Source of the DNA: a virus
UHGV virus genome: UHGV-0391889
Reading direction: 5' to 3' (one strand)
DNA length: 39,374 bases
Below are positions 1-19,946 of this stretch, in pieces. The notes beneath the pieces are model-generated. The model worked only from the letters and a program-made list of their open reading frames with translations. It was not told where the DNA came from and did no database searches. Position 1 is the stretch's first letter. Each line of letters starts with the position of its first letter. The translations under genes were made by a program, and so were the position numbers.

Positions 1-68
1 AACGTTTATGAAAATGCAGAAATAACGAGCAAATGGCATCATTCCTGCTTTTGTCAGGGAGATCTACC

Positions 69-623
69 ATGCTTATTGGCTATGTACGCGTATCAACAAA
101 TGACCAGAATACCGATCTACAACGTAATGCGTTGAACTGTGCAGGATGCGAGCTGATTTTTGAAGACAAGATAAGCGGTACAAAGTCCGAAAGGCCGGGA
201 CTGAAAAAACTGCTCAGGACATTATCGGCAGGTGACACTCTGGTTGTCTGGAAGCTGGATCGGCTGGGGCGTAGTATGCGGCATCTGGTCATTCTGGTTG
301 AGGAGTTGCGCGAACGTGGCGTTAATTTTCGCAGCCTGACGGATGCTATTGATACCAGCACACCGATGGGGCGTTTTTTCTTTCATGTGATGGGGGCCCT
401 GGCTGAAATGGAACGAGAACTGATTGTTGAACGAACAAAAGCTGGACTGGAAGCTGCTCGCGCACAGGGACGAATTGGTGGACGTCGTCCCAAACTTACA
501 CCAGAACAATGGGCGCAGGCCGGGCGACTAATTGCATCAGGAGTTCCTCGCCAGAAGGTGGCGATCATTTATGATGTTGGCGTATCGACTTTGTATAAGA
601 AGTTTCCGGTCGGAGATAAATGA
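69..623 (+). CDS. pin: Serine DNA invertase, Pin/Hin/Gin family
   Basis: Translation from the internal Met (MLIGYVRVSTNDQ...) has the resolvase N-terminal catalytic Ser motif and a C-terminal HTH; very close to my recollection of e14 PinE. Track ORF 33-623 trimmed to the conserved start. Confidence 0.9.
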   Translation: MLIGYVRVSTNDQNTDLQRNALNCAGCELIFEDKISGTKSERPGLKKLLRTLSAGDTLVVWKLDRLGRSMRHLVILVEELRERGVNFRSLTDAIDTSTPMGRFFFHVMGALAEMERELIVERTKAGLEAARAQGRIGGRRPKLTPEQWAQAGRLIASGVPRQKVAIIYDVGVSTLYKKFPVGDK

Positions 624-1084: not shown

Positions 1085-2161
1085 TCAGAGCAGTAAGTAC
1101 GTTTTTTCTCTCTCATCAAGATACATTTTTGTTGTCTTCTCCGATGTGTGGCCAAGTAGACGTTGAGCAAATTCTTCCCCACATGTTTCTTTGTACAATC
1201 GTCCAGCCAGGCTTCTGATCTCGTGAAAAGTTGGTGGGTTTTCACTGAACTGGATACCTGTTAATTTTCTGGCTGCGACAAATTTCTTTGTCAGGCCGTC
1301 CGGGTGAATGCTGCCGTCAGGGCTGTTTTTTCTAATCCCGGCACTGATTAGATAATCCCCCCTACTTACCATGCGGCACTGTTCAACTACTGTACCAAGT
1401 CGTAAACCAGCGACAGGAAGGCTGAGTGACAGGGGGATAGCAATCATCATTCCTGTCTTAATTTGCCTGATGTGGAGACGATCATCATAAATCTCACTGA
1501 ACCGCATATTTGTTATGTCTTCGCGACGTTGTCCTGTTACAAGGGCTAAGTCCATAGCTAATGGGAACCATGTCGGAAGTTGATCTGCTGCCTCCCTGAT
1601 GCAGTTGTATGTCTTTAGTTTCAGCCGTTCTCTTGTAACTACTATTTTCGGTGCTCTTGTTGGCGTTACTGGATTTTGAGATATACGTCCTTCAACAATG
1701 GCCTCGCGGAACATATCAGATAACACAGAACGCATTGATCCTGCCATCGTGTTTTTCCCTCCTTCAATCCACAAATCAAGAAACTCGGCAATATGGCGAG
1801 TGGTTATTTCTGTCAGTAAAACTCCTCCTAATTTTTCTTTTATTGTCTCCAGTTGATTTACCCGAATTTTATAAGTATTTCTGGACACTTTTCTCCTTAT
1901 AAGAATCGTTTTGTAACGTTCAATCCAGTCTGCCATAGTAAATGAGTCGAACCCTTTTAGTTTTTCAATTAAGGCAGCAGGAGAGTAGTTTTTGTATATA
2001 TAATGATTTGCTTCAATTGCCTGCGCTACTGCATCTCTTCTTGAAATTTTACCTAGTGTAAATTCTTCTTTCGTCAGAGGGTTGCGCCAGTAATATGCTT
2101 TGTCCCTCCTTCGATATGTTAAGTTTTTAGGCAAATTGGGATCGTATTTTTTCCGCTGCAT
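1085..2161 (-). CDS. int: Tyrosine integrase, lambda Int family
   Basis: 358 aa ORF; C-terminus carries the R...HxxR...Y catalytic signature ([16 protein letters not shown]); followed by xis and an attP-like region. Confidence 0.85.
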
Positions 2162-8703: not shown

Positions 8704-8797
8704 AGTTCCGATTTTATCACGATGTGTGAAATTGGCGGTACTCACGTATCTGTAGTTGATCTCGCTCACGAAATGTGAATAATAGAGACAGGAGGTA
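8704..8797. promoter_or_regulatory. Divergent immunity-region promoters with three operator-like TCAC-N5-GTGA sites
   Basis: TCACgatgtGTGA at 8717-8729, TCACgtatcTGTA at 8742-8754, TCACgaaatGTGA at 8766-8778, spaced about 24-25 bp, between the repressor and cro-like starts. Confidence 0.55.
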
Positions 8798-11880: not shown

Positions 11881-12303
11881 ATGGCAAAAGTATTTACACC
11901 AGAAGAGCGGGAAAAAATTAAAGGGCAGGTTGTTGAACTTGTACGTCTGAGCGGTCGCGAGACGTTACGGGCTCTGGAGGCTAAAACCGGTGCATTAAGG
12001 TATTACATAAGCACTCTCGCCAGAGAATTGGTCGCCAGTGGTGATGTTTACAATTCAGGCTACGGATTATTCCCGTCTGAGCAGGCGCGTAAAGACTGGC
12101 AAAACGCCCGCAAAAAACTATCAAGGGCAAAGGTGAAGAAACCGGTTGTGGTTGATCCTGACCTTATCTGGTCATTACCAGACGGAGAAATACGTCGTTA
12201 CAACAGACGACAGAACATAATCTGTCGCGAGTGCCGGAATAGTGAGGTTATGCAGCGAGTGCTGGCGTTTTATCAGGGGAGTTTTCAGGAGGTGGCACAG
12301 TGA
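11881..12303 (+). CDS. Hypothetical protein
   Basis: ORF with a GGAGG RBS (start MAKVFTPEE); basic C-terminus with CxxC. Confidence 0.5.
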   Translation: MAKVFTPEEREKIKGQVVELVRLSGRETLRALEAKTGALRYYISTLARELVASGDVYNSGYGLFPSEQARKDWQNARKKLSRAKVKKPVVVDPDLIWSLPDGEIRRYNRRQNIICRECRNSEVMQRVLAFYQGSFQEVAQ

Positions 12304-12500
12304 GCGGGATTGACTACCAAGAATTGGCTGCTGCCAACGCTTTCCTGGCTGATGTACGGGCGGTGGCGTTTAACGAGCTTCGCGCGGCGTTTGTCAGGCA
12401 CGCAAAAGTTGCAGGACTGGATGATGCCGATACCGTAACGCTTAAGGAAGTGACAGAAGCATTGTTGCATTGTGCGGAACAGATTCGCGCGCCTGAATAA
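12300..12500 (+). CDS. Hypothetical small protein (GTG start)
   Basis: Start overlaps the upstream stop (GTGA), consistent with translational coupling. Confidence 0.4.
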   Translation: MSGIDYQELAAANAFLADVRAVAFNELRAAFVRHAKVAGLDDADTVTLKEVTEALLHCAEQIRAPE

Positions 12501-12595
12501 TTAAATTTAGTGTTGTAAATAAAATTTAATCCTTAACCGGAGGGATTTCTGCACCCTCAGAACATCAGGAGGCCGTCCGAAAGGGCGGTAGTGAA

Positions 12596-12778
12596 ATGCG
12601 AAAATTTAAAATAATTATTGAAACGGGAATAGCCGGTGGAGATTTCGAGGATGAATTCGAAGTGGATGATGATGCGACACCAGATGAAATACAGGATGAA
12701 GCTAAAGATATTTTCTTTAACTACTGCAATTACTCATACCACGAAATAAAAGACGAAGAGGAAGAACAAAATGGCTGA
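12596..12778 (+). CDS. Hypothetical small acidic protein
   Basis: 60 aa ORF, Asp/Glu-rich. Confidence 0.4.
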   Translation: MRKFKIIIETGIAGGDFEDEFEVDDDATPDEIQDEAKDIFFNYCNYSYHEIKDEEEEQNG

Positions 12779-12947
12779 TTTTGGTTCAACTAAATATAAC
12801 GCCAGTTTTGAAGAATGGCATGAACTGTTAATGGATTATGCAGAGTTACGCGGTGGAAGTGCCGCTGATGCTGAAGCATGGCGTGATGATTATGAAGCAG
12901 GGAAAACACCGGTCGAAGCATATTGTGATGAGTGGGGCGATGAATGA
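12771..12947 (+). CDS. Hypothetical small acidic Trp-rich protein (58 aa)
   Basis: Hand-translated: MADFGSTKYNASFEEWHELLMDYAELRGGSAADAEAWRDDYEAGKTPVEAYCDEWGDE; GAGGAAG RBS; overlaps both neighbours at start and stop; below the track cutoff. Confidence 0.35.
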   Translation: MADFGSTKYNASFEEWHELLMDYAELRGGSAADAEAWRDDYEAGKTPVEAYCDEWGDE

Positions 12948-13303
12948 GCGAGATTAATTATCAGGAAGGGCATGAAAAGGCAGGGCAGGCAAAACCAGTG
13001 GCATGGCGATATCGCTACGTGAAAAAAGGCGTTACAGACTTTCAGGGGAAGCAGTGGGCTGGTGACTGGAAATATGTCCCGACAAAAGAAGATTGTAACG
13101 ACAGACCAAACTATGAAATCCAGGCGTTATTCACGGCCCCGCCAGCCCCGGTGACATCAGAAGGACTGGTTAAAGCTGTGCGCTTTTATGAACAGGTACG
13201 GCGTGAGGATCCGCCAGTTGAAACCGGAGCATGGAAAGACGCTATTGACTGGGTACTCAAGGAGGCCTGTCTGGTTGTAAATACGGGCATCAAAGGAGGC
13301 TGA
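12944..13303 (+). CDS. Hypothetical protein
   Basis: 119 aa ORF, coupled to its neighbours. Confidence 0.5.
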   Translation: MSEINYQEGHEKAGQAKPVAWRYRYVKKGVTDFQGKQWAGDWKYVPTKEDCNDRPNYEIQALFTAPPAPVTSEGLVKAVRFYEQVRREDPPVETGAWKDAIDWVLKEACLVVNTGIKGG

Positions 13304-13519
13304 ATGGGTATTGCCGCAAGTTTCACTATGCATCTCTATTGTGATTGCCGCCAGTGTACGGATGGCAAATATCAGTCGCCAGATTTTGGTGAGTATATCG
13401 GTACGTCATGGGCTGGCTGTGCAAAAGAGGCACGTAAAGATGGGTGGCGAATAAGCGCCGACAAAACGCGTGCTTTTGCGCCAGGGCATAAAATTTTGCG
13501 GAGCATCAAAGGAGAGTGA
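13304..13519 (+). CDS. Hypothetical small Cys-rich protein
   Basis: 71 aa with CDCRQC...C; possible zinc-binding. Confidence 0.45.
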   Translation: MGIAASFTMHLYCDCRQCTDGKYQSPDFGEYIGTSWAGCAKEARKDGWRISADKTRAFAPGHKILRSIKGE

Positions 13520-13520
13520 T

Positions 13521-13739
13521 ATGCCTACATTATTCAGAAAAGAATATCCGCGAAGAAGTCGAATAACAGAACTCCTGTTTCTCATTCTGTTTATCGTGTT
13601 GATGATACCGATATCCCCGCTAATTTTTGTCTGGGCAATCGGGAAAATAATTGAGCCAGTTATTGAATTGTATAACGACGTGGTATGGGCGTCGTTCAAC
13701 ACACTGCACAATAAAATTAATCCATATAAGGAAAACTGA
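13521..13739 (+). CDS. Hypothetical small membrane protein
   Basis: Start MPTLFRK with a GGAGAG RBS; one strongly hydrophobic segment (LLFLILFIVLMIPISPLIFVWAIG). Confidence 0.45.
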   Translation: MPTLFRKEYPRRSRITELLFLILFIVLMIPISPLIFVWAIGKIIEPVIELYNDVVWASFNTLHNKINPYKEN

Positions 13740-13740
13740 A

Positions 13741-14106
13741 ATGGCACTGACGAAAAAACAACGTGCAGAGCTGCGCATGAAGTTCGGCGGTCGCTGTGCT
13801 TATTGTGGCTGCGAACTTGGCGAAAAGTGGCATGTAGACCATGTAAAACCGGTCATTCGTTTTGCTGGAAATATGCTTCACCAGGAACGTGACGATATAT
13901 CCAACATGGTTCCGGCATGCCACCCATGCAATCTGCACAAGCATTGCAGCAGCCTGGAAGATTATCGGCGAATTATCAGTGATGGTCGTCGTGAATTCCT
14001 TGCGTCCGGGAAAGGCAAGGCGCTGGTTCGTATGGGATTGGTTGAAATGAAATCTGACCCGGTTGTGTTCTGGTTTGAAAAATATCAAGAAGGGGCTACA
14101 GCATGA
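13741..14106 (+). CDS. HNH endonuclease
   Basis: 121 aa from MALTKKQRAELR...; HNH signature CAYCGCEL...HVDHVKP...N...ACHPCNLHK. Confidence 0.8.
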   Translation: MALTKKQRAELRMKFGGRCAYCGCELGEKWHVDHVKPVIRFAGNMLHQERDDISNMVPACHPCNLHKHCSSLEDYRRIISDGRREFLASGKGKALVRMGLVEMKSDPVVFWFEKYQEGATA

Positions 14107-14597
14107 CCACTTTTACCGACAAAGAACTGATTAAAGAAATCAAAGAGCGCATCAGCAGCCTGGACGTGCGAGACAATATTGAGCGCCGGGCTTATGAGAT
14201 TGCACAGGCATCTCTGGTAGCAGAGCCAGTGGCATATCAGTATCGCCAGTGGGATGCAGAATATGATGAATGGGGAGAATGGGAAGATTGCGGGGAAAGT
14301 GCTTTCGAAAGATTTGTTGAGGAAGAGAAATGCCTGGGGGCAGGTGTTCAGACCCGTAAGCTTTACACCGCCCCTCCAGTGCATCAACCCGGTGGATTTA
14401 CAATTGAGGAAACACAAGAACTTTACGAAGACTTGGTTCGAAGCCACATAAGCCAAGCTTTAAGTGGCGAAAAGATGAAAAAGAAAGATCGCGATGCTGA
14501 TTTACGCTGGATTCATGGCGTTATAGTTCAGGCTGCGTGGTTTGTGAAAGCATCACTGGAAGCGTTGCCTGAACCACCGCAGGAGGTGAATCAATGA
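14103..14597 (+). CDS. Hypothetical protein
   Basis: 164 aa ORF, coupled to the HNH gene; acidic, Trp-rich central region. Confidence 0.55.
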   Translation: MTTFTDKELIKEIKERISSLDVRDNIERRAYEIAQASLVAEPVAYQYRQWDAEYDEWGEWEDCGESAFERFVEEEKCLGAGVQTRKLYTAPPVHQPGGFTIEETQELYEDLVRSHISQALSGEKMKKKDRDADLRWIHGVIVQAAWFVKASLEALPEPPQEVNQ

Positions 14598-14677
14598 CCT
14601 GGCCTGAAGCATTCACAACGGTAGGAATTGCGATGGCGGTGGCGCTGGTGGTGTATTCGATTTTCCGATGGGGATAA
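14594..14677 (+). CDS. Candidate 27-aa hydrophobic peptide
   Basis: MTWPEAFTTVGIAMAVALVVYSIFRWG; AGGAGGTGA RBS 5 nt upstream; ATG overlaps the upstream stop. Confidence 0.35.
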   Translation: MTWPEAFTTVGIAMAVALVVYSIFRWG

Positions 14678-14769
14678 AAACGGTTTGCGGGAAAAGGAGA
14701 GTTAAGTAGAATTGCTGCGGGTGCTTGAGGCTATCTGCCTCGGGCATGAACACCAACGGCAGATAGAGA

Positions 14770-14838
14770 AAAGCCCCAGTTAACATTACGCGTCCGGCAA
14801 GACGCTTAACATTAATCTGAGGCCATATCTATGCGACA
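14770..14838 (-). ncRNA. Candidate Sok-like antisense RNA
   Basis: Minus-strand promoter-like TTGACC (14868-14873) and TAATCT (14844-14849) with 18 nt spacing, facing into the hok leader; minus-strand hairpin then T-run near 14770. Positions approximate. Confidence 0.3.
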
Positions 14839-14890
14839 CATAGAGATTAGCCTCTTACGGACCGAAAGGTCAAGGAGAAGCAGGCTATGA
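14831..14890 (+). CDS. Mok-like leader ORF (19 aa)
   Basis: Short ORF whose stop overlaps the hok start (ATGA). Confidence 0.4.
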   Translation: MRHIEISLLRTERSRRSRL

Positions 14891-15042
14891 AGCAGCAAAA
14901 GGCGATGTTAATCGCCCTGATCGTCATCTGTTTAACCGTCATAGTGACGGCACTGGTAACGAGGAAAGACCTCTGCGAGGTACGAATCCGAACCGGCCAG
15001 ACGGAGGTCGCTGTCTTCACAGCTTACGAACCTGAGGAGTAA
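14887..15042 (+). CDS. hok: Hok/Gef family type I toxin (HokD/RelF-like)
   Basis: 51 aa MKQQKAMLIALIVICLTVIVTALVTRKDLCEVRIRTGQTEVAVFTAYEPEE: N-terminal TM helix and conserved Cys, as recalled for E. coli HokD. Confidence 0.85.
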   Translation: MKQQKAMLIALIVICLTVIVTALVTRKDLCEVRIRTGQTEVAVFTAYEPEE

Positions 15043-15111
15043 GAGACCAGGCGAGGGAGAAATCCCTCGCCACCTCTGATGTGTCAGGCATCCTCAACGC
15101 ACCCGCACTTA

Positions 15112-15132
15112 ACCCGCTTCGGCGGGTTTTTT
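15112..15132 (+). terminator. Rho-independent terminator after hok
   Basis: CCCGC-ttcg-GCGGG followed by TTTTTT; a second hairpin (GGCGAGGGA/TCCCTCGCC, 15046-15070) lies directly after the stop. Confidence 0.6.
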
Positions 15133-15317
15133 GTTGCGCGCTGAATACGCAGGGTGAAAAATAACCATATATTTGATTATATACACAACAAAAAATAAAA
15201 GTCATTGTACCTGCACATTAAACAATCAAATATACGGCGTGAAATAAATATTTTTCAGATTAATATTTTTGTCTCTATGTGGATATAACCGTTTGTACTT
15301 ATAAACCTGGAGGCATC

Positions 15318-15530
15318 GTGGAAAAAATAAAGAAACTATTTAGTAGCAAATATGCAGTCATACGTCGTGATGACCTGTCAGTTATAGTCGAAATGGATTA
15401 CTTCCCTGAAACAAAAAAATCAATGATGTATCGTAATGGTCGAAAGGCAATTTTTTTACCGATGAGGGTAAGTGACATTATGGGAAATGATAAACTGCAG
15501 GATGAATTGCGAGTCAGAGCATCCTGTTAG
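15318..15530 (+). CDS. Hypothetical small protein in an AT-rich island (GTG start)
   Basis: GGAGG RBS 4 nt upstream of a GTG; sits in a markedly AT-rich segment (about 15140-15320). Confidence 0.35.
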   Translation: MEKIKKLFSSKYAVIRRDDLSVIVEMDYFPETKKSMMYRNGRKAIFLPMRVSDIMGNDKLQDELRVRASC

Positions 15531-19886: not shown

Positions 19887-19946
19887 CATTACAGAAGCTC
19901 CTTTGATAAGGGGCTTCGATAATGTTAACAACTTGTGGAAACCATC

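What the first reader, a model, noticed from the sequence alone, without database searches (positions are those of the whole stretch)
12300..14677. Run of about nine translationally coupled small accessory genes, including an HNH endonuclease and a terminal 27-aa hydrophobic peptide
Downstream of the replication genes, a series of short ORFs overlap by start/stop codons (GTGA or ATGA junctions). They include two acidic Trp-rich proteins, a Cys-rich protein, a small membrane protein, a 121-aa HNH endonuclease and a 164-aa acidic protein. The HNH gene is far from the terminase, so it is unlikely to be the packaging-associated HNH. Dense, coupled small genes in an early operon are typical of anti-defence or host-takeover cassettes, and most of these products have no family I recognise.
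Basis: partly seen in the sequence, partly recalled or inferred. Interest (0 to 1): 0.55.

Follow-up and report, generated by a model that had tools for sequence, protein, structure and literature searches.

The report
Mosaic accessory gene array in prophage
This is the ordinary, non-essential "accessory" stretch of the early operon of a Rac/Qin-type E. coli prophage: nine small, independently shuffled genes of unknown function, including a stand-alone HNH nuclease and a rarely annotated 27-residue membrane peptide found in about a quarter of E. coli genomes.

Summary
Nine + strand ORFs fill 12300-14677. They sit between the replication genes (DnaC-like, DUF1627, DUF977) and a hok/sok locus, in a Rac-type lambdoid prophage. 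Eight of the nine junctions are tight (-8 to +1 nt); one is a 95-nt gap. Seven or eight ORFs show purifying selection.

This is not one machine. Each gene or gene pair is a separate module, swapped exactly at start and stop codons. The modules come from a pool shared with the pL "exo-xis" regions of Stx phages. Pieces occur in 4542 of 5426 complete E. coli genomes, but this order occurs in only one or two.

- **Families:** every ORF except the last falls in a PHROG or Pfam family, almost all of unknown function.
- **HNH:** it is catalytically intact, never next to a terminase, and diverges much less than its neighbour.
- **27-aa ORF:** it is a real gene. I found 39 alleles, about 25 of them synonymous. 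It almost always overlaps the upstream stop as ATGA behind its own Shine-Dalgarno sequence, and it is always last in the array. RefSeq does not annotate it.

Nothing tested supports or excludes an anti-defence role. Verdict: a known kind of region with one modest new detail.

The parts
11881..12303 (+). Upstream context gene: DUF977 (YdaW-like, PHROG 'Ren-like exclusion protein'). Its stop overlaps the GTG start of ORF A.
   Evidence: Pfam DUF977 E 9e-28; phrog_142 E 8e-45; GTGA junction.
12300..12500 (+). ORF A, 66 aa. An internally deleted ead/Ea22-like gene: the N-terminal 'VS.IDYQ.L' start is joined to the roughly 55-aa C-terminal domain, and the coiled coil is missing.
   Evidence: Aligns to both ends of the annotated ead/Ea22-like proteins of L001, L002 and L003. 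phrog_27745 E 2e-41. AGGAGG lies 7 nt before the GTG. No purifying signal, pN/pS about 1-2.4.
12567..12598 (+). Portable junction: Shine-Dalgarno AGGAGG (12567-12572), a 6-7 bp hairpin with a GAAA loop (12573-12588), 7 nt, then the ATG of ORF B.
   Evidence: Sequence; fold. At least 75 copies in related loci precede four different genes, and the stem variants keep pairing.
12596..12778 (+). ORF B, 60 aa, DUF7167. Very acidic (20 D/E, pI 4.05), predicted beta-beta-alpha-beta-alpha fold. The family is restricted to E. coli phages.
   Evidence: Pfam E 1e-14; phrog_1997; pN/pS 0.0-0.08; 75 clusters, all E. coli; AF2 pLDDT 78.9; no significant fold match.
12771..12947 (+). ORF C, 58 aa, acidic, 3 Trp. 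It overlaps B by 8 nt.
   Evidence: phrog_519 E 8e-23, covering the C-terminal part of that profile; pN/pS 0.04-0.19.
12944..13303 (+). ORF D, 119 aa, with a 'PVAW...FTAPP' module shared with ORF H and with Ead/Ea22/DUF551-type prophage proteins.
   Evidence: phrog_660 E 2e-43. 952 clusters with lengths of 119, 148 and 170 aa; some are fused to DUF551 or Ead_Ea22 domains. D versus H: 28% identity over 65 aa. pN/pS 0.11-0.20.
13304..13519 (+). ORF E, 71 aa, Cys-rich. It belongs to a broad family of roughly 70-aa phage proteins with consensus LYCDC..C...AR..GW.I..D..C.APGH. The 933W homologue is L0068.
   Evidence: phrog_926 E 6e-35. 123 clusters at 50% identity. Alignment. Only a weak lead to the ZF-HD homeodomain, E 0.1. 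933W context.
13521..13739 (+). ORF F, 72 aa, DUF4014. A small membrane protein with a basic N-terminus followed by about 27 hydrophobic residues. The 933W homologue is L0067.
   Evidence: Pfam E 8e-26; phrog_1832 E 9e-45; pN/pS 0.22-0.46; composition.
13741..14106 (+). ORF G, 121 aa. A stand-alone HNH endonuclease with an intact Zn-finger and catalytic residues and a conserved C-terminal helical extension.
   Evidence: Pfam HNH 31.3 bits against a cut-off of 21.4. Invariant C19, C22, H31, D33, H34, N55, C60, C63, N64 and K67 in 35 homologues. AF2 pLDDT 90.7. Fold hits are only HNH domains. Present in 385 of 5426 E. coli genomes. An exact gene-sized indel relative to L003.
14103..14597 (+). 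ORF H, 164 aa, acidic. It is a mosaic: an N-terminal coiled-coil-like module, a 'PVAY...YTAPP' module, and a helical C-terminus ending in the LPEPPQEV tail that carries the Shine-Dalgarno sequence of ORF I.
   Evidence: phrog_5117, phrog_60 and phrog_660. Different parts match different loci. pN/pS 0.08-0.31. The tail is shared with DUF551 proteins.
14594..14677 (+). ORF I, 27 aa (MTWPEAFTTVGIAMAVALVVYSIFRWG). A conserved single-pass membrane microprotein, rarely annotated, and always the last gene of the array.
   Evidence: tblastn finds 92 phage records. Present in 1264 of 5426 E. coli genomes. 127 of 132 copies start at an ATGA overlap behind a Shine-Dalgarno sequence, in at least 4 upstream contexts, and are followed by terminators or hok/sok. 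39 alleles, about 25 synonymous; variable sites by codon position 12/11/21.
14719..15128 (+). Downstream boundary: the hok/sok type I toxin-antitoxin locus (hok CDS 14887-15042) and its intrinsic terminator (15111-15128).
   Evidence: Rfam sok 101 bits; Hok ORF; terminator scan.

Best explanation
The region is the accessory segment of the early-right operon of a Rac/Qin-type lambdoid prophage of E. coli. It occupies the position of lambda's ninR region, but its genes come from the pool that Stx phages carry in their pL exo-xis ('ninL') region.

**Expression (inferred).** It is most likely transcribed from the early promoter together with the replication genes. It is translated as two coupled blocks, DUF977-A and B-to-I. 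It ends at the hok/sok locus and its terminator.

**Not one system (shown).** Each gene or gene pair is an independent module. The modules are exchanged among phages by recombination exactly at start and stop junctions.

**Content (shown)**
- A: a truncated Ea22-like protein.
- B and C: two small acidic proteins.
- D and H: two proteins of the Ead/Ea22/DUF551 module family.
- E: a Cys-rich protein of a broad phage family.
- F: a small membrane protein.
- G: a catalytically intact stand-alone HNH nuclease. Its low divergence and exact presence/absence pattern suggest recent spread as a semi-selfish gene.
- I: a 27-aa membrane microprotein that is the constant terminal gene of such arrays.

**Function (inferred).** The products act separately, early after induction or infection. 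They are dispensable modulators of host physiology, of the lysis-lysogeny balance and of competition with other phages. Individual targets are unknown.
For: **Context.** The window carries YdaT, an IstB/DnaC-like ATPase, DUF1627 and DUF977 upstream, and hok, DUF1367, YbcO and a Q-like protein downstream. RecE, RecT and an integrase lie on the left.

**Transcription.** No strong + strand terminator match lies between the pR-like site (8756-8783) and 15111-15128.

**Coupling.** Junctions and Shine-Dalgarno sites are.

**Real genes.** pN/pS is well below 1 for B-H, and moderately below 1 for I (0.33-0.44).

**Modularity**
- Homology with five related loci breaks at 12337, 13743/13762, 14117 and 14594, that is, at gene borders.
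- The F stop/next start junction is shared by three different downstream genes.
- Among 80 IMG/VR loci the gene sets differ. The window's order recurs in only one or two.
- Pieces occur in 4542 of 5426 E. coli genomes, but only one genome covers 80% or more.

**Shared pool with pL regions**
- ArgO145 gp10-gp15 lie between exo/bet and int.
- 933W L0067 and L0068 lie in the exo-xis region.
- A Pantoea HNH homologue lies between cI and int.

**HNH**
- Catalytic residues are invariant and the model is confident.
- Mean pairwise identity is 97.8% against 92.1% for the adjacent gene F. The step falls at the gene border.

**Literature.** Exo-xis genes are dispensable and shift the lysis-lysogeny decision and host gene expression. 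Ea22 variants are mosaics with portable C-terminal domains (PMC8614690, PMC10834534, PMC10789677).
Against: - No expression data exist for this prophage. Co-transcription and translation are inferred from sequence only.
- None of the nine products has a tested function. The 'modulator' role is extrapolated from region-level experiments on lambda and Phi24B.
- Phi24B lacks homologues of E, F, G and I.
- B-C-D-E-F travel together in 170 genomes, and F-G are adjacent in most E. coli loci. Some functional linkage between neighbours therefore cannot be excluded.
- ORF A shows no purifying selection and may be a remnant.
Confidence: 0.7

Rival explanations
1. Anti-defence cassette. Several of the small proteins, above all the acidic B and C, would inhibit host restriction or abortive-infection systems early in infection. 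They could do so as DNA mimics or as direct binders.
For: - B and C are small and very acidic (pI 4.05) and are the most strongly constrained ORFs.
- They sit in an early operon. The same slot in relatives carries methyltransferases and toxin-antitoxin genes.
- The non-significant top structural neighbours of B are small acidic phage inhibitors: T7 Gp2 (E 1.1, TM 0.49/0.56) and p56.
Against: - No hit to any named anti-restriction or anti-defence family in Pfam, PHROGs or NCBIfam.
- No fold match for B reaches E <= 0.001.
- The B family is confined to E. coli phages, with 75 clusters.
- No dedicated anti-defence library was available.
- The published phenotypes of the related gene pool concern lysogeny, not defence.
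Confidence: 0.15
2. Prophage-encoded defence or exclusion system. The HNH nuclease (G) would be the effector. It would work with the membrane proteins F and/or I to destroy the DNA of superinfecting phages.
For: - F and G are adjacent, with a fixed 1-nt junction, in most E. coli loci.
- One Shigella contig carries a DUF4014-HNH fusion (P0002).
- The HNH resembles the PtuB, Cap5 and retron HNH effectors at domain level.
- Neighbouring genes include DUF977, which PHROGs calls 'Ren-like exclusion protein'.
Against: - G occurs without F in the more distant homologues and in four E. coli loci.
- G has a different, younger history than F.
- There is no ATPase or sensor partner such as PtuA.
- PADLOC scores are weak and confined to the HNH motif.
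- I lies at a variable distance from G and is often present without G.
Confidence: 0.1
3. For ORF G only: a selfish, homing-like free-standing HNH endonuclease that spreads between related phages and gives the phage little benefit. This is compatible with the best explanation.
For: - Exact gene-sized presence/absence between otherwise collinear loci.
- 97-98% identity in 385 genomes, across both pL and pR contexts.
- Third-position divergence is half that of the adjacent gene, with a sharp step at the border.
Against: - At 121 aa it has no extra DNA-recognition domain of the kind seen in I-HmuI-type homing enzymes.
- The whole array is mosaic at gene borders, so an exact indel is not specific to homing.
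- The family is conserved at 45-98% identity across Enterobacterales with invariant catalytic residues. That suggests selection for function.
Confidence: 0.25
4. Decaying, non-functional ORFs of a cryptic prophage. The reading frames would survive only through recent common ancestry.
For: - ORF A is a deletion derivative with pN/pS near or above 1.
- Many frameshifted or truncated B homologues exist.
- Five of 132 copies of I are damaged.
Against: - B-H show a clear synonymous excess in the annotated frame only.
- About 25 synonymous alleles encode one identical 27-aa peptide.
- The window carries intact lysis, terminase and structural genes.
Confidence: 0.03

Closest known systems
exo-xis ('ninL') region of lambda and Stx phages (orf60a, orf63, orf61, orf73, ea22, ea8.5)
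   Same: - Early-transcribed, dispensable, densely packed small genes of mostly unknown function.
- Mosaic proteins with portable C-terminal domains.
- Direct homologues of B, C, F, G and I lie there in ArgO145, and homologues of E and F in 933W.
- ORF A is a shortened ead/Ea22-like protein.
   Different: - Here the genes sit in the rightward (pR) operon between the replication genes and Q, not between exo and xis.
- The conserved exo-xis core (orf60a, 63, 61, 73) is absent.
- A lacks the Ead_Ea22 coiled coil that defines the family.
- Phi24B, the experimental model, has no E, F, G or I.
Lambda ninR region (ren, ninA-ninI, including NinG/Rap)
   Same: - Same map position, between the replication genes and Q.
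- Non-essential, with ATGA-type coupled small ORFs.
- Contains a nuclease of the HNH-related kind. The NinG profile gives a weak hit to G, E 0.006.
   Different: - No nin gene homologue lies inside 12300-14677.
- The YbcO nuclease and the Q-like protein lie further downstream.
- G scores below the NinG cut-off (16.8 against 25.4 bits).
Small stand-alone HNH nucleases: Gme HNH nicking endonuclease (PDB 4H9D) and the HK97 gp74 packaging HNH
   Same: - About 110-120 aa, a single beta-beta-alpha-metal domain with a CxxC...CxxC zinc site.
- 4H9D is the best sequence match in the PDB (E 2.5e-4) and is among the fold hits.
   Different: - Only the roughly 55-residue core aligns.
- G has its own conserved C-terminal helices and a 'PVVFWFE' motif.
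- Unlike gp74, G is not next to a terminase in the window, and early-region markers flank it in related loci.
Small hydrophobic prophage peptides such as the type I toxin Hok (encoded 210 nt downstream)
   Same: ORF I is a short single-pass membrane peptide. It is encoded on prophages and often lies immediately upstream of hok/sok.
   Different: - No sequence similarity to Hok.
- No Rfam hit or antisense RNA signature over 14594-14677.
- I is translationally coupled to an upstream gene rather than held silent by mRNA folding.
- I occurs without hok in ArgO145, BP-4795 and Av-05.

Membership tests
HNH endonuclease (Pfam PF01844, beta-beta-alpha-metal fold) | Profile score above the curated cut-off | tested here: met
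   31.3 bits against a cut-off of 21.4, E 2.3e-7; phrog_2118 E 1e-56.
HNH endonuclease (Pfam PF01844, beta-beta-alpha-metal fold) | Catalytic His of the D-H pair, the Asn residues, and the CxxC...CxxC zinc ligands | tested here: met
   C19, C22, H31, D33, H34, N55, C60, C63, N64 and K67 are invariant in 35 homologues of 49-90% identity.
HNH endonuclease (Pfam PF01844, beta-beta-alpha-metal fold) | Predicted fold matches solved HNH domains | tested here: met
   AF2 pLDDT 90.7. The top 43 Foldseek PDB hits are all HNH domains (Cap5, Cas9 HNH, 4H9D, McrA), probability up to 1.0, though no E-value reaches 0.001.
HNH endonuclease (Pfam PF01844, beta-beta-alpha-metal fold) | Metal-dependent DNA nicking or cleavage | not testable with these tools
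   Needs purified protein.
Packaging-associated HNH (HK97 gp74 type) | Gene adjacent to the terminase and portal genes | tested here: not met
   G ends at 14106 and the small terminase starts at 19935, with hok, Q and the lysis genes between them. Related loci show replication, hok or integrase genes as neighbours.
Free-standing homing endonuclease | Exact presence/absence polymorphism of the gene between otherwise collinear genomes | tested here: met
   L003 lacks exactly window 13744-14108.
Free-standing homing endonuclease | Cleavage of the endonuclease-free allele and over-transmission in crosses | not testable with these tools
   Indirect only: G diverges 2-4 times less than the adjacent gene F.
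ead/Ea22-like family (ORF A) | Central coiled-coil region (Pfam Ead_Ea22 / IPR025153) | tested here: not met
   No Pfam hit for A. The alignment shows that the roughly 70-150 central residues of the L001, L002 and L003 proteins are missing.
ead/Ea22-like family (ORF A) | Homology to the N-terminal start and C-terminal domain of annotated members | tested here: met
   The last 55 aa are near-identical to those of the L001 and L003 ead/Ea22-like proteins, and the 'VS.IDYQ' start is shared.
Known anti-defence or anti-restriction proteins | Profile match to a named family (Ocr, ArdA, Ral, Gam, Abc, Acr and others) | tested here: not met
   None in Pfam, PHROGs or NCBIfam for any of the nine ORFs. 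No dedicated anti-defence library was available.
Known defence systems (PADLOC) | Match to all required components of a system | tested here: not met
   Only G matches, weakly, the PtuB and PDC-M01B HNH models (best E 2.4e-9). There is no PtuA-like ATPase.
Lambdoid early accessory region (ninR / exo-xis kind) | Position inside an early operon, between core modules | tested here: met
   It lies between the DnaC-like/DUF977 genes and the Q-like protein. Homologous modules lie between exo and int in ArgO145 and 933W.
Lambdoid early accessory region (ninR / exo-xis kind) | Mosaic gene content with exchange at gene boundaries | tested here: met
Lambdoid early accessory region (ninR / exo-xis kind) | Dispensable for lytic growth | not testable with these tools
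   Inferred from the variable presence of every gene in related prophages.
Type I toxin (for ORF I) | Cognate antisense RNA, or a family profile match | tested here: not met
   No Rfam match over 14594-14677 at E <= 1. The sok hit starts at 14719. There is no Pfam or PHROG family.

The most novel reading that the evidence does not exclude
The 27-codon terminal ORF encodes a widespread membrane microprotein that reference annotation essentially overlooks. It is the one constant element of a shuffling accessory array, so it may have a specific host-directed job. Possible jobs are superinfection exclusion, modulation of a host membrane protein, or controlled membrane damage. In the same reading, the tightly constrained acidic pair B/C would be new inhibitors of a host nucleic-acid enzyme or defence protein.
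Probability: 0.2. Interest if true: 0.55.

Novelty: new member of a known kind. Interest (0 to 1): 0.3.

Why it matters
- **Practical use.** The result shows which ORFs of a very common E. coli prophage segment are real, and where the module borders lie. It also shows that the array should not be treated as one system.
- **The new detail.** A 27-residue membrane peptide gene occurs in about 23% of complete E. coli genomes, often in several copies. RefSeq annotation omits it. Its fixed place at the end of early accessory arrays makes it a cheap, well-defined target for small-protein work.
- **The HNH gene.** It is a tractable case for asking whether small nucleases in phage early regions are selfish or useful.
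- **Overall.** None of this is surprising for lambdoid phages.

Tried and rejected
- **PDB sequence searches** for A, E and G alone found nothing useful.
- **Fold searches** with the B model against the PDB and BFVD gave no hit at E <= 0.001 and no annotated neighbour.
- **The HNH fold search** returned only generic HNH domains.
- **Literature searches** for DUF4014, DUF7167 and the peptide sequence returned nothing. The Sakai Ribo-seq supplements do not list the peptide.
- **ORF I as part of hok/sok: rejected.** The Rfam sok model starts 42 nt after the stop of I, and I occurs without hok.
- **ORF I as the C-terminal anchor of a fused DUF551 protein: rejected.** The 121-aa proteins clustered with the peptide do not contain it. 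No in-frame fusion was found among 132 copies.
- **F+G as an obligate pair: rejected.** Distant homologues of G lack F, and the two genes have different divergence.
- **Phi24B as an experimental proxy: rejected.** It has no E, F, G or I.
The alignments for B and D are shallow because both families are confined to E. coli.

Full report
**What is in the sequence.** The window is a Rac/Qin-type lambdoid prophage of E. coli.
- On the left are an integrase, RecT and an 877-aa RecE/ExoVIII.
- Next come a cI-like repressor, YdaT, a replication protein, an IstB/DnaC-like ATPase, DUF1627 and DUF977.
- Downstream are hok/sok, DUF1367, YbcO, a Q-like antiterminator, an ORF6N protein, holin and Rz/Rz1-type lysis genes, and the small terminase at 19935.

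| ORF | Coordinates | Length | Note |
|---|---|---|---|
| A | 12300-12500 | 66 aa | GTG start |
| B | 12596-12778 | 60 aa | |
| C | 12771-12947 | 58 aa | |
| D | 12944-13303 | 119 aa | |
| E | 13304-13519 | 71 aa | |
| F | 13521-13739 | 72 aa | |
| G | 13741-14106 | 121 aa | HNH |
| H | 14103-14597 | 164 aa | |
| I | 14594-14677 | 27 aa | |

The junctions are:
- GTGA (DUF977/A).
- A 95-nt gap (A/B).
- An 8-nt overlap (B/C).
- ATGA (C/D, G/H, H/I).
- Direct abutment (D/E).
- A 1-nt spacer (E/F, F/G).

The array is therefore two coupled blocks, not one. Most starts have a Shine-Dalgarno match.

**Are they genes?** I compared the window with nine related loci and counted Nei-Gojobori synonymous and non-synonymous differences.
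- pN/pS is 0.0-0.08 for B, 0.04-0.19 for C and 0.11-0.20 for D.
- It is 0.09-0.35 for E, 0.22-0.46 for F, 0.09-0.27 for G and 0.08-0.31 for H.
- The two alternative frames show no synonymous excess.
- ORF A shows none either (about 1-2.4).

ORF A is an internally deleted ead/Ea22-like gene. It keeps the N-terminal 'VS.IDYQ.L' start and the last roughly 55 residues of the proteins annotated in L001, L002 and L003, but lacks the coiled coil. A PHROG of similar short proteins exists (phrog_27745), so A may still be functional. That is not shown.

**What the products are.** Every ORF except I falls in a PHROG. Three fall in Pfam families:
- B is DUF7167.
- F is DUF4014.
- G is HNH.

Only G has a predicted function. 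NCBIfam and PADLOC add only generic HNH similarity to IscB, retron HNH and PtuB.

- **B.** It is very acidic, and its family is confined to E. coli (75 clusters). Its AF2 model (pLDDT 78.9) is beta-beta-alpha-beta-alpha, with no significant neighbour in the PDB or BFVD. The non-significant top hits are T7 Gp2 and p56.
- **D and H.** They share a weak 'PVA[WY]...[FY]TAPP' module and hit the same PHROG. D homologues come in 119, 148 and 170-aa forms, and some are fused to DUF551 or Ead_Ea22 domains. This is the domain shuffling described for Ea22 variants (PMC10834534).
- **E.** It belongs to a broad family of roughly 70-aa proteins (123 clusters at 50% identity) with consensus LYCDC..C...AR..GW.I..D..C.APGH. 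The family has no Pfam model. The only lead is a weak profile match to the ZF-HD homeodomain, E 0.1.
- **F.** It is a small membrane protein.

**The HNH.**
- G has all zinc and catalytic residues invariant across 35 homologues from Escherichia, Salmonella, Klebsiella, Yersinia, Pantoea and others.
- The model is confident (pLDDT 90.7), and the structural neighbours are HNH domains only.
- The best match in the PDB is the Geobacter nicking HNH 4H9D, E 2.5e-4.
- G is not packaging-associated. It lies 5.8 kb from the terminase. In related loci it sits among replication genes, hok or integrase.
- It is present in 385 of 5426 complete E. coli genomes at 97-98% identity.
- It is an exact gene-sized indel relative to L003.
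- Across 16 F+G haplotypes, G is much less diverged than the adjacent gene F: 97.8% against 92.1% mean identity, and 5.3% against 10.9% third-position divergence. The step falls at the gene border.

This fits recent horizontal spread, possibly homing-like. It does not prove it.

**The 27-aa ORF.** This is the most informative part.
- tblastn finds the peptide in 92 phage records at 55-96% identity.
- megablast finds it in 1264 of 5426 E. coli genomes, at 1730 places.
- IMG/VR holds at least 455 loci.
- Among GTDB species representatives, the only full-length chromosomal hits are in Escherichia and Shigella. Three further hits sit on 0.4-1.8 kb contigs assigned to other genera.
- Of 132 copies in the fetched loci, 127 start with ATGA overlapping the stop of the upstream gene. 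That upstream gene falls in at least four unrelated sequence classes, each supplying a GGAGG-type Shine-Dalgarno sequence.
- Downstream come either intrinsic terminators or hok/sok.
- In ArgO145, homology to the window covers exactly 14594-14678.
- There are 39 distinct intact alleles. About 25 encode the identical peptide. Variable sites by codon position are 12, 11 and 21.
- Five copies are damaged.
- The ORF lies outside the Rfam sok match, which covers 14719-14889.
- It is absent from all twelve annotated records I inspected. The exact sequence does exist in nr as a 'hypothetical' or 'bacteriophage' protein, on 79 contigs.

The peptide has one hydrophobic helix with GxxxA and AxxxA spacing and a C-terminal Arg. 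The window's allele carries C24F.

**One system or many modules?**
- Homology with related loci breaks at gene borders.
- The junction after F is shared by three different downstream genes.
- The 80 HNH-containing IMG/VR loci show many gene combinations, and the window's order recurs in only one or two.
- Pieces occur in 4542 of 5426 genomes. One genome covers 80% or more of the query. The B-F block is whole in 170 genomes.
- The same modules lie in the leftward operon between exo/bet and int in ArgO145 and 933W. The DUF551-type gene plus I plus hok module also sits at the right end of 933W.

The array is therefore a mosaic of independent accessory genes. They come from the pool studied as the exo-xis region, whose genes are dispensable and shift the lysis-lysogeny decision and host expression (PMC8614690, PMC7093339, PMC10789677). 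Phi24B itself lacks E, F, G and I, so that literature is only an analogy.

**Mechanism and verdict.**
- *Shown:* gene structure, coupling signals, selection, modularity, an intact HNH active site, and a conserved terminal microprotein.
- *Inferred:* co-transcription from the early promoter, because no strong + strand terminator match lies before 15111. Also inferred are independent action of the products as dispensable early modulators, and semi-selfish spread of the HNH.
- *Anti-defence reading:* it remains possible, especially for B and C, but nothing I could test supports it.

This is a known kind of region whose parts are already catalogued as hypothetical proteins. The one modest addition is the evidence that the rarely annotated 27-codon ORF is a real and very common gene.

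Noticed in passing
window 12567-12598: A portable junction: Shine-Dalgarno AGGAGG, then a 6-7 bp GC hairpin with a GAAA loop, then 6-9 nt, then ATG. With the hairpin unfolded, the Shine-Dalgarno sequence is 23 nt from the start codon. Once the hairpin folds, it lies about 7 nt away. At least 75 copies in related loci precede four different genes, and the stem variants keep pairing.
   Followed up: partly
window 14719-15128: A complete hok/sok type I toxin-antitoxin locus (Rfam sok 101 bits; hok CDS 14887-15042). A strong intrinsic terminator follows at 15111-15128.
   Followed up: partly
window 15051-15132: A sub-threshold Rfam match to the Salmonella prophage sRNA IsrK (31 bits against a gathering score of 50, E 4e-4). 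It overlaps the hok terminator. An unassigned 83-aa ORF follows at 15279-15530.
   Followed up: no
window 13521-14106 and loci L013-L092: The HNH gene is 2-4 times less diverged than the DUF4014 gene immediately upstream. Divergence falls from about 8% to about 2% at the gene border.
   Followed up: yes
protein P0002 (Shigella sonnei, 194 aa): A single-contig fusion of DUF4014 and the HNH domain, presumably caused by loss of the TGA-A-ATG junction.
   Followed up: no
locus L033, 1930-5022: A tandem duplication of the end of the array: I-hok, then an HNH fragment, then I-hok again.
   Followed up: no
window 14663-14665: The window's allele of the 27-aa peptide has Phe at residue 24. Of the 126 intact copies examined, 124 have Cys there; Phe recurs only in one diverged allele.
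   Followed up: no
window 33-623: A Pin-like serine invertase/resolvase gene sits just left of the prophage integrase (1085-2161, minus strand). It may belong to a neighbouring element.
   Followed up: no
window 13304-13519 and alignment A6: The Cys-rich ORF E family (consensus LYCDC..C...AR..GW.I..D..C.APGH) is widespread, with 123 clusters at 50% identity, but has no Pfam model. The window's member has lost the fourth conserved Cys ('RAFAPGH').
   Followed up: partly
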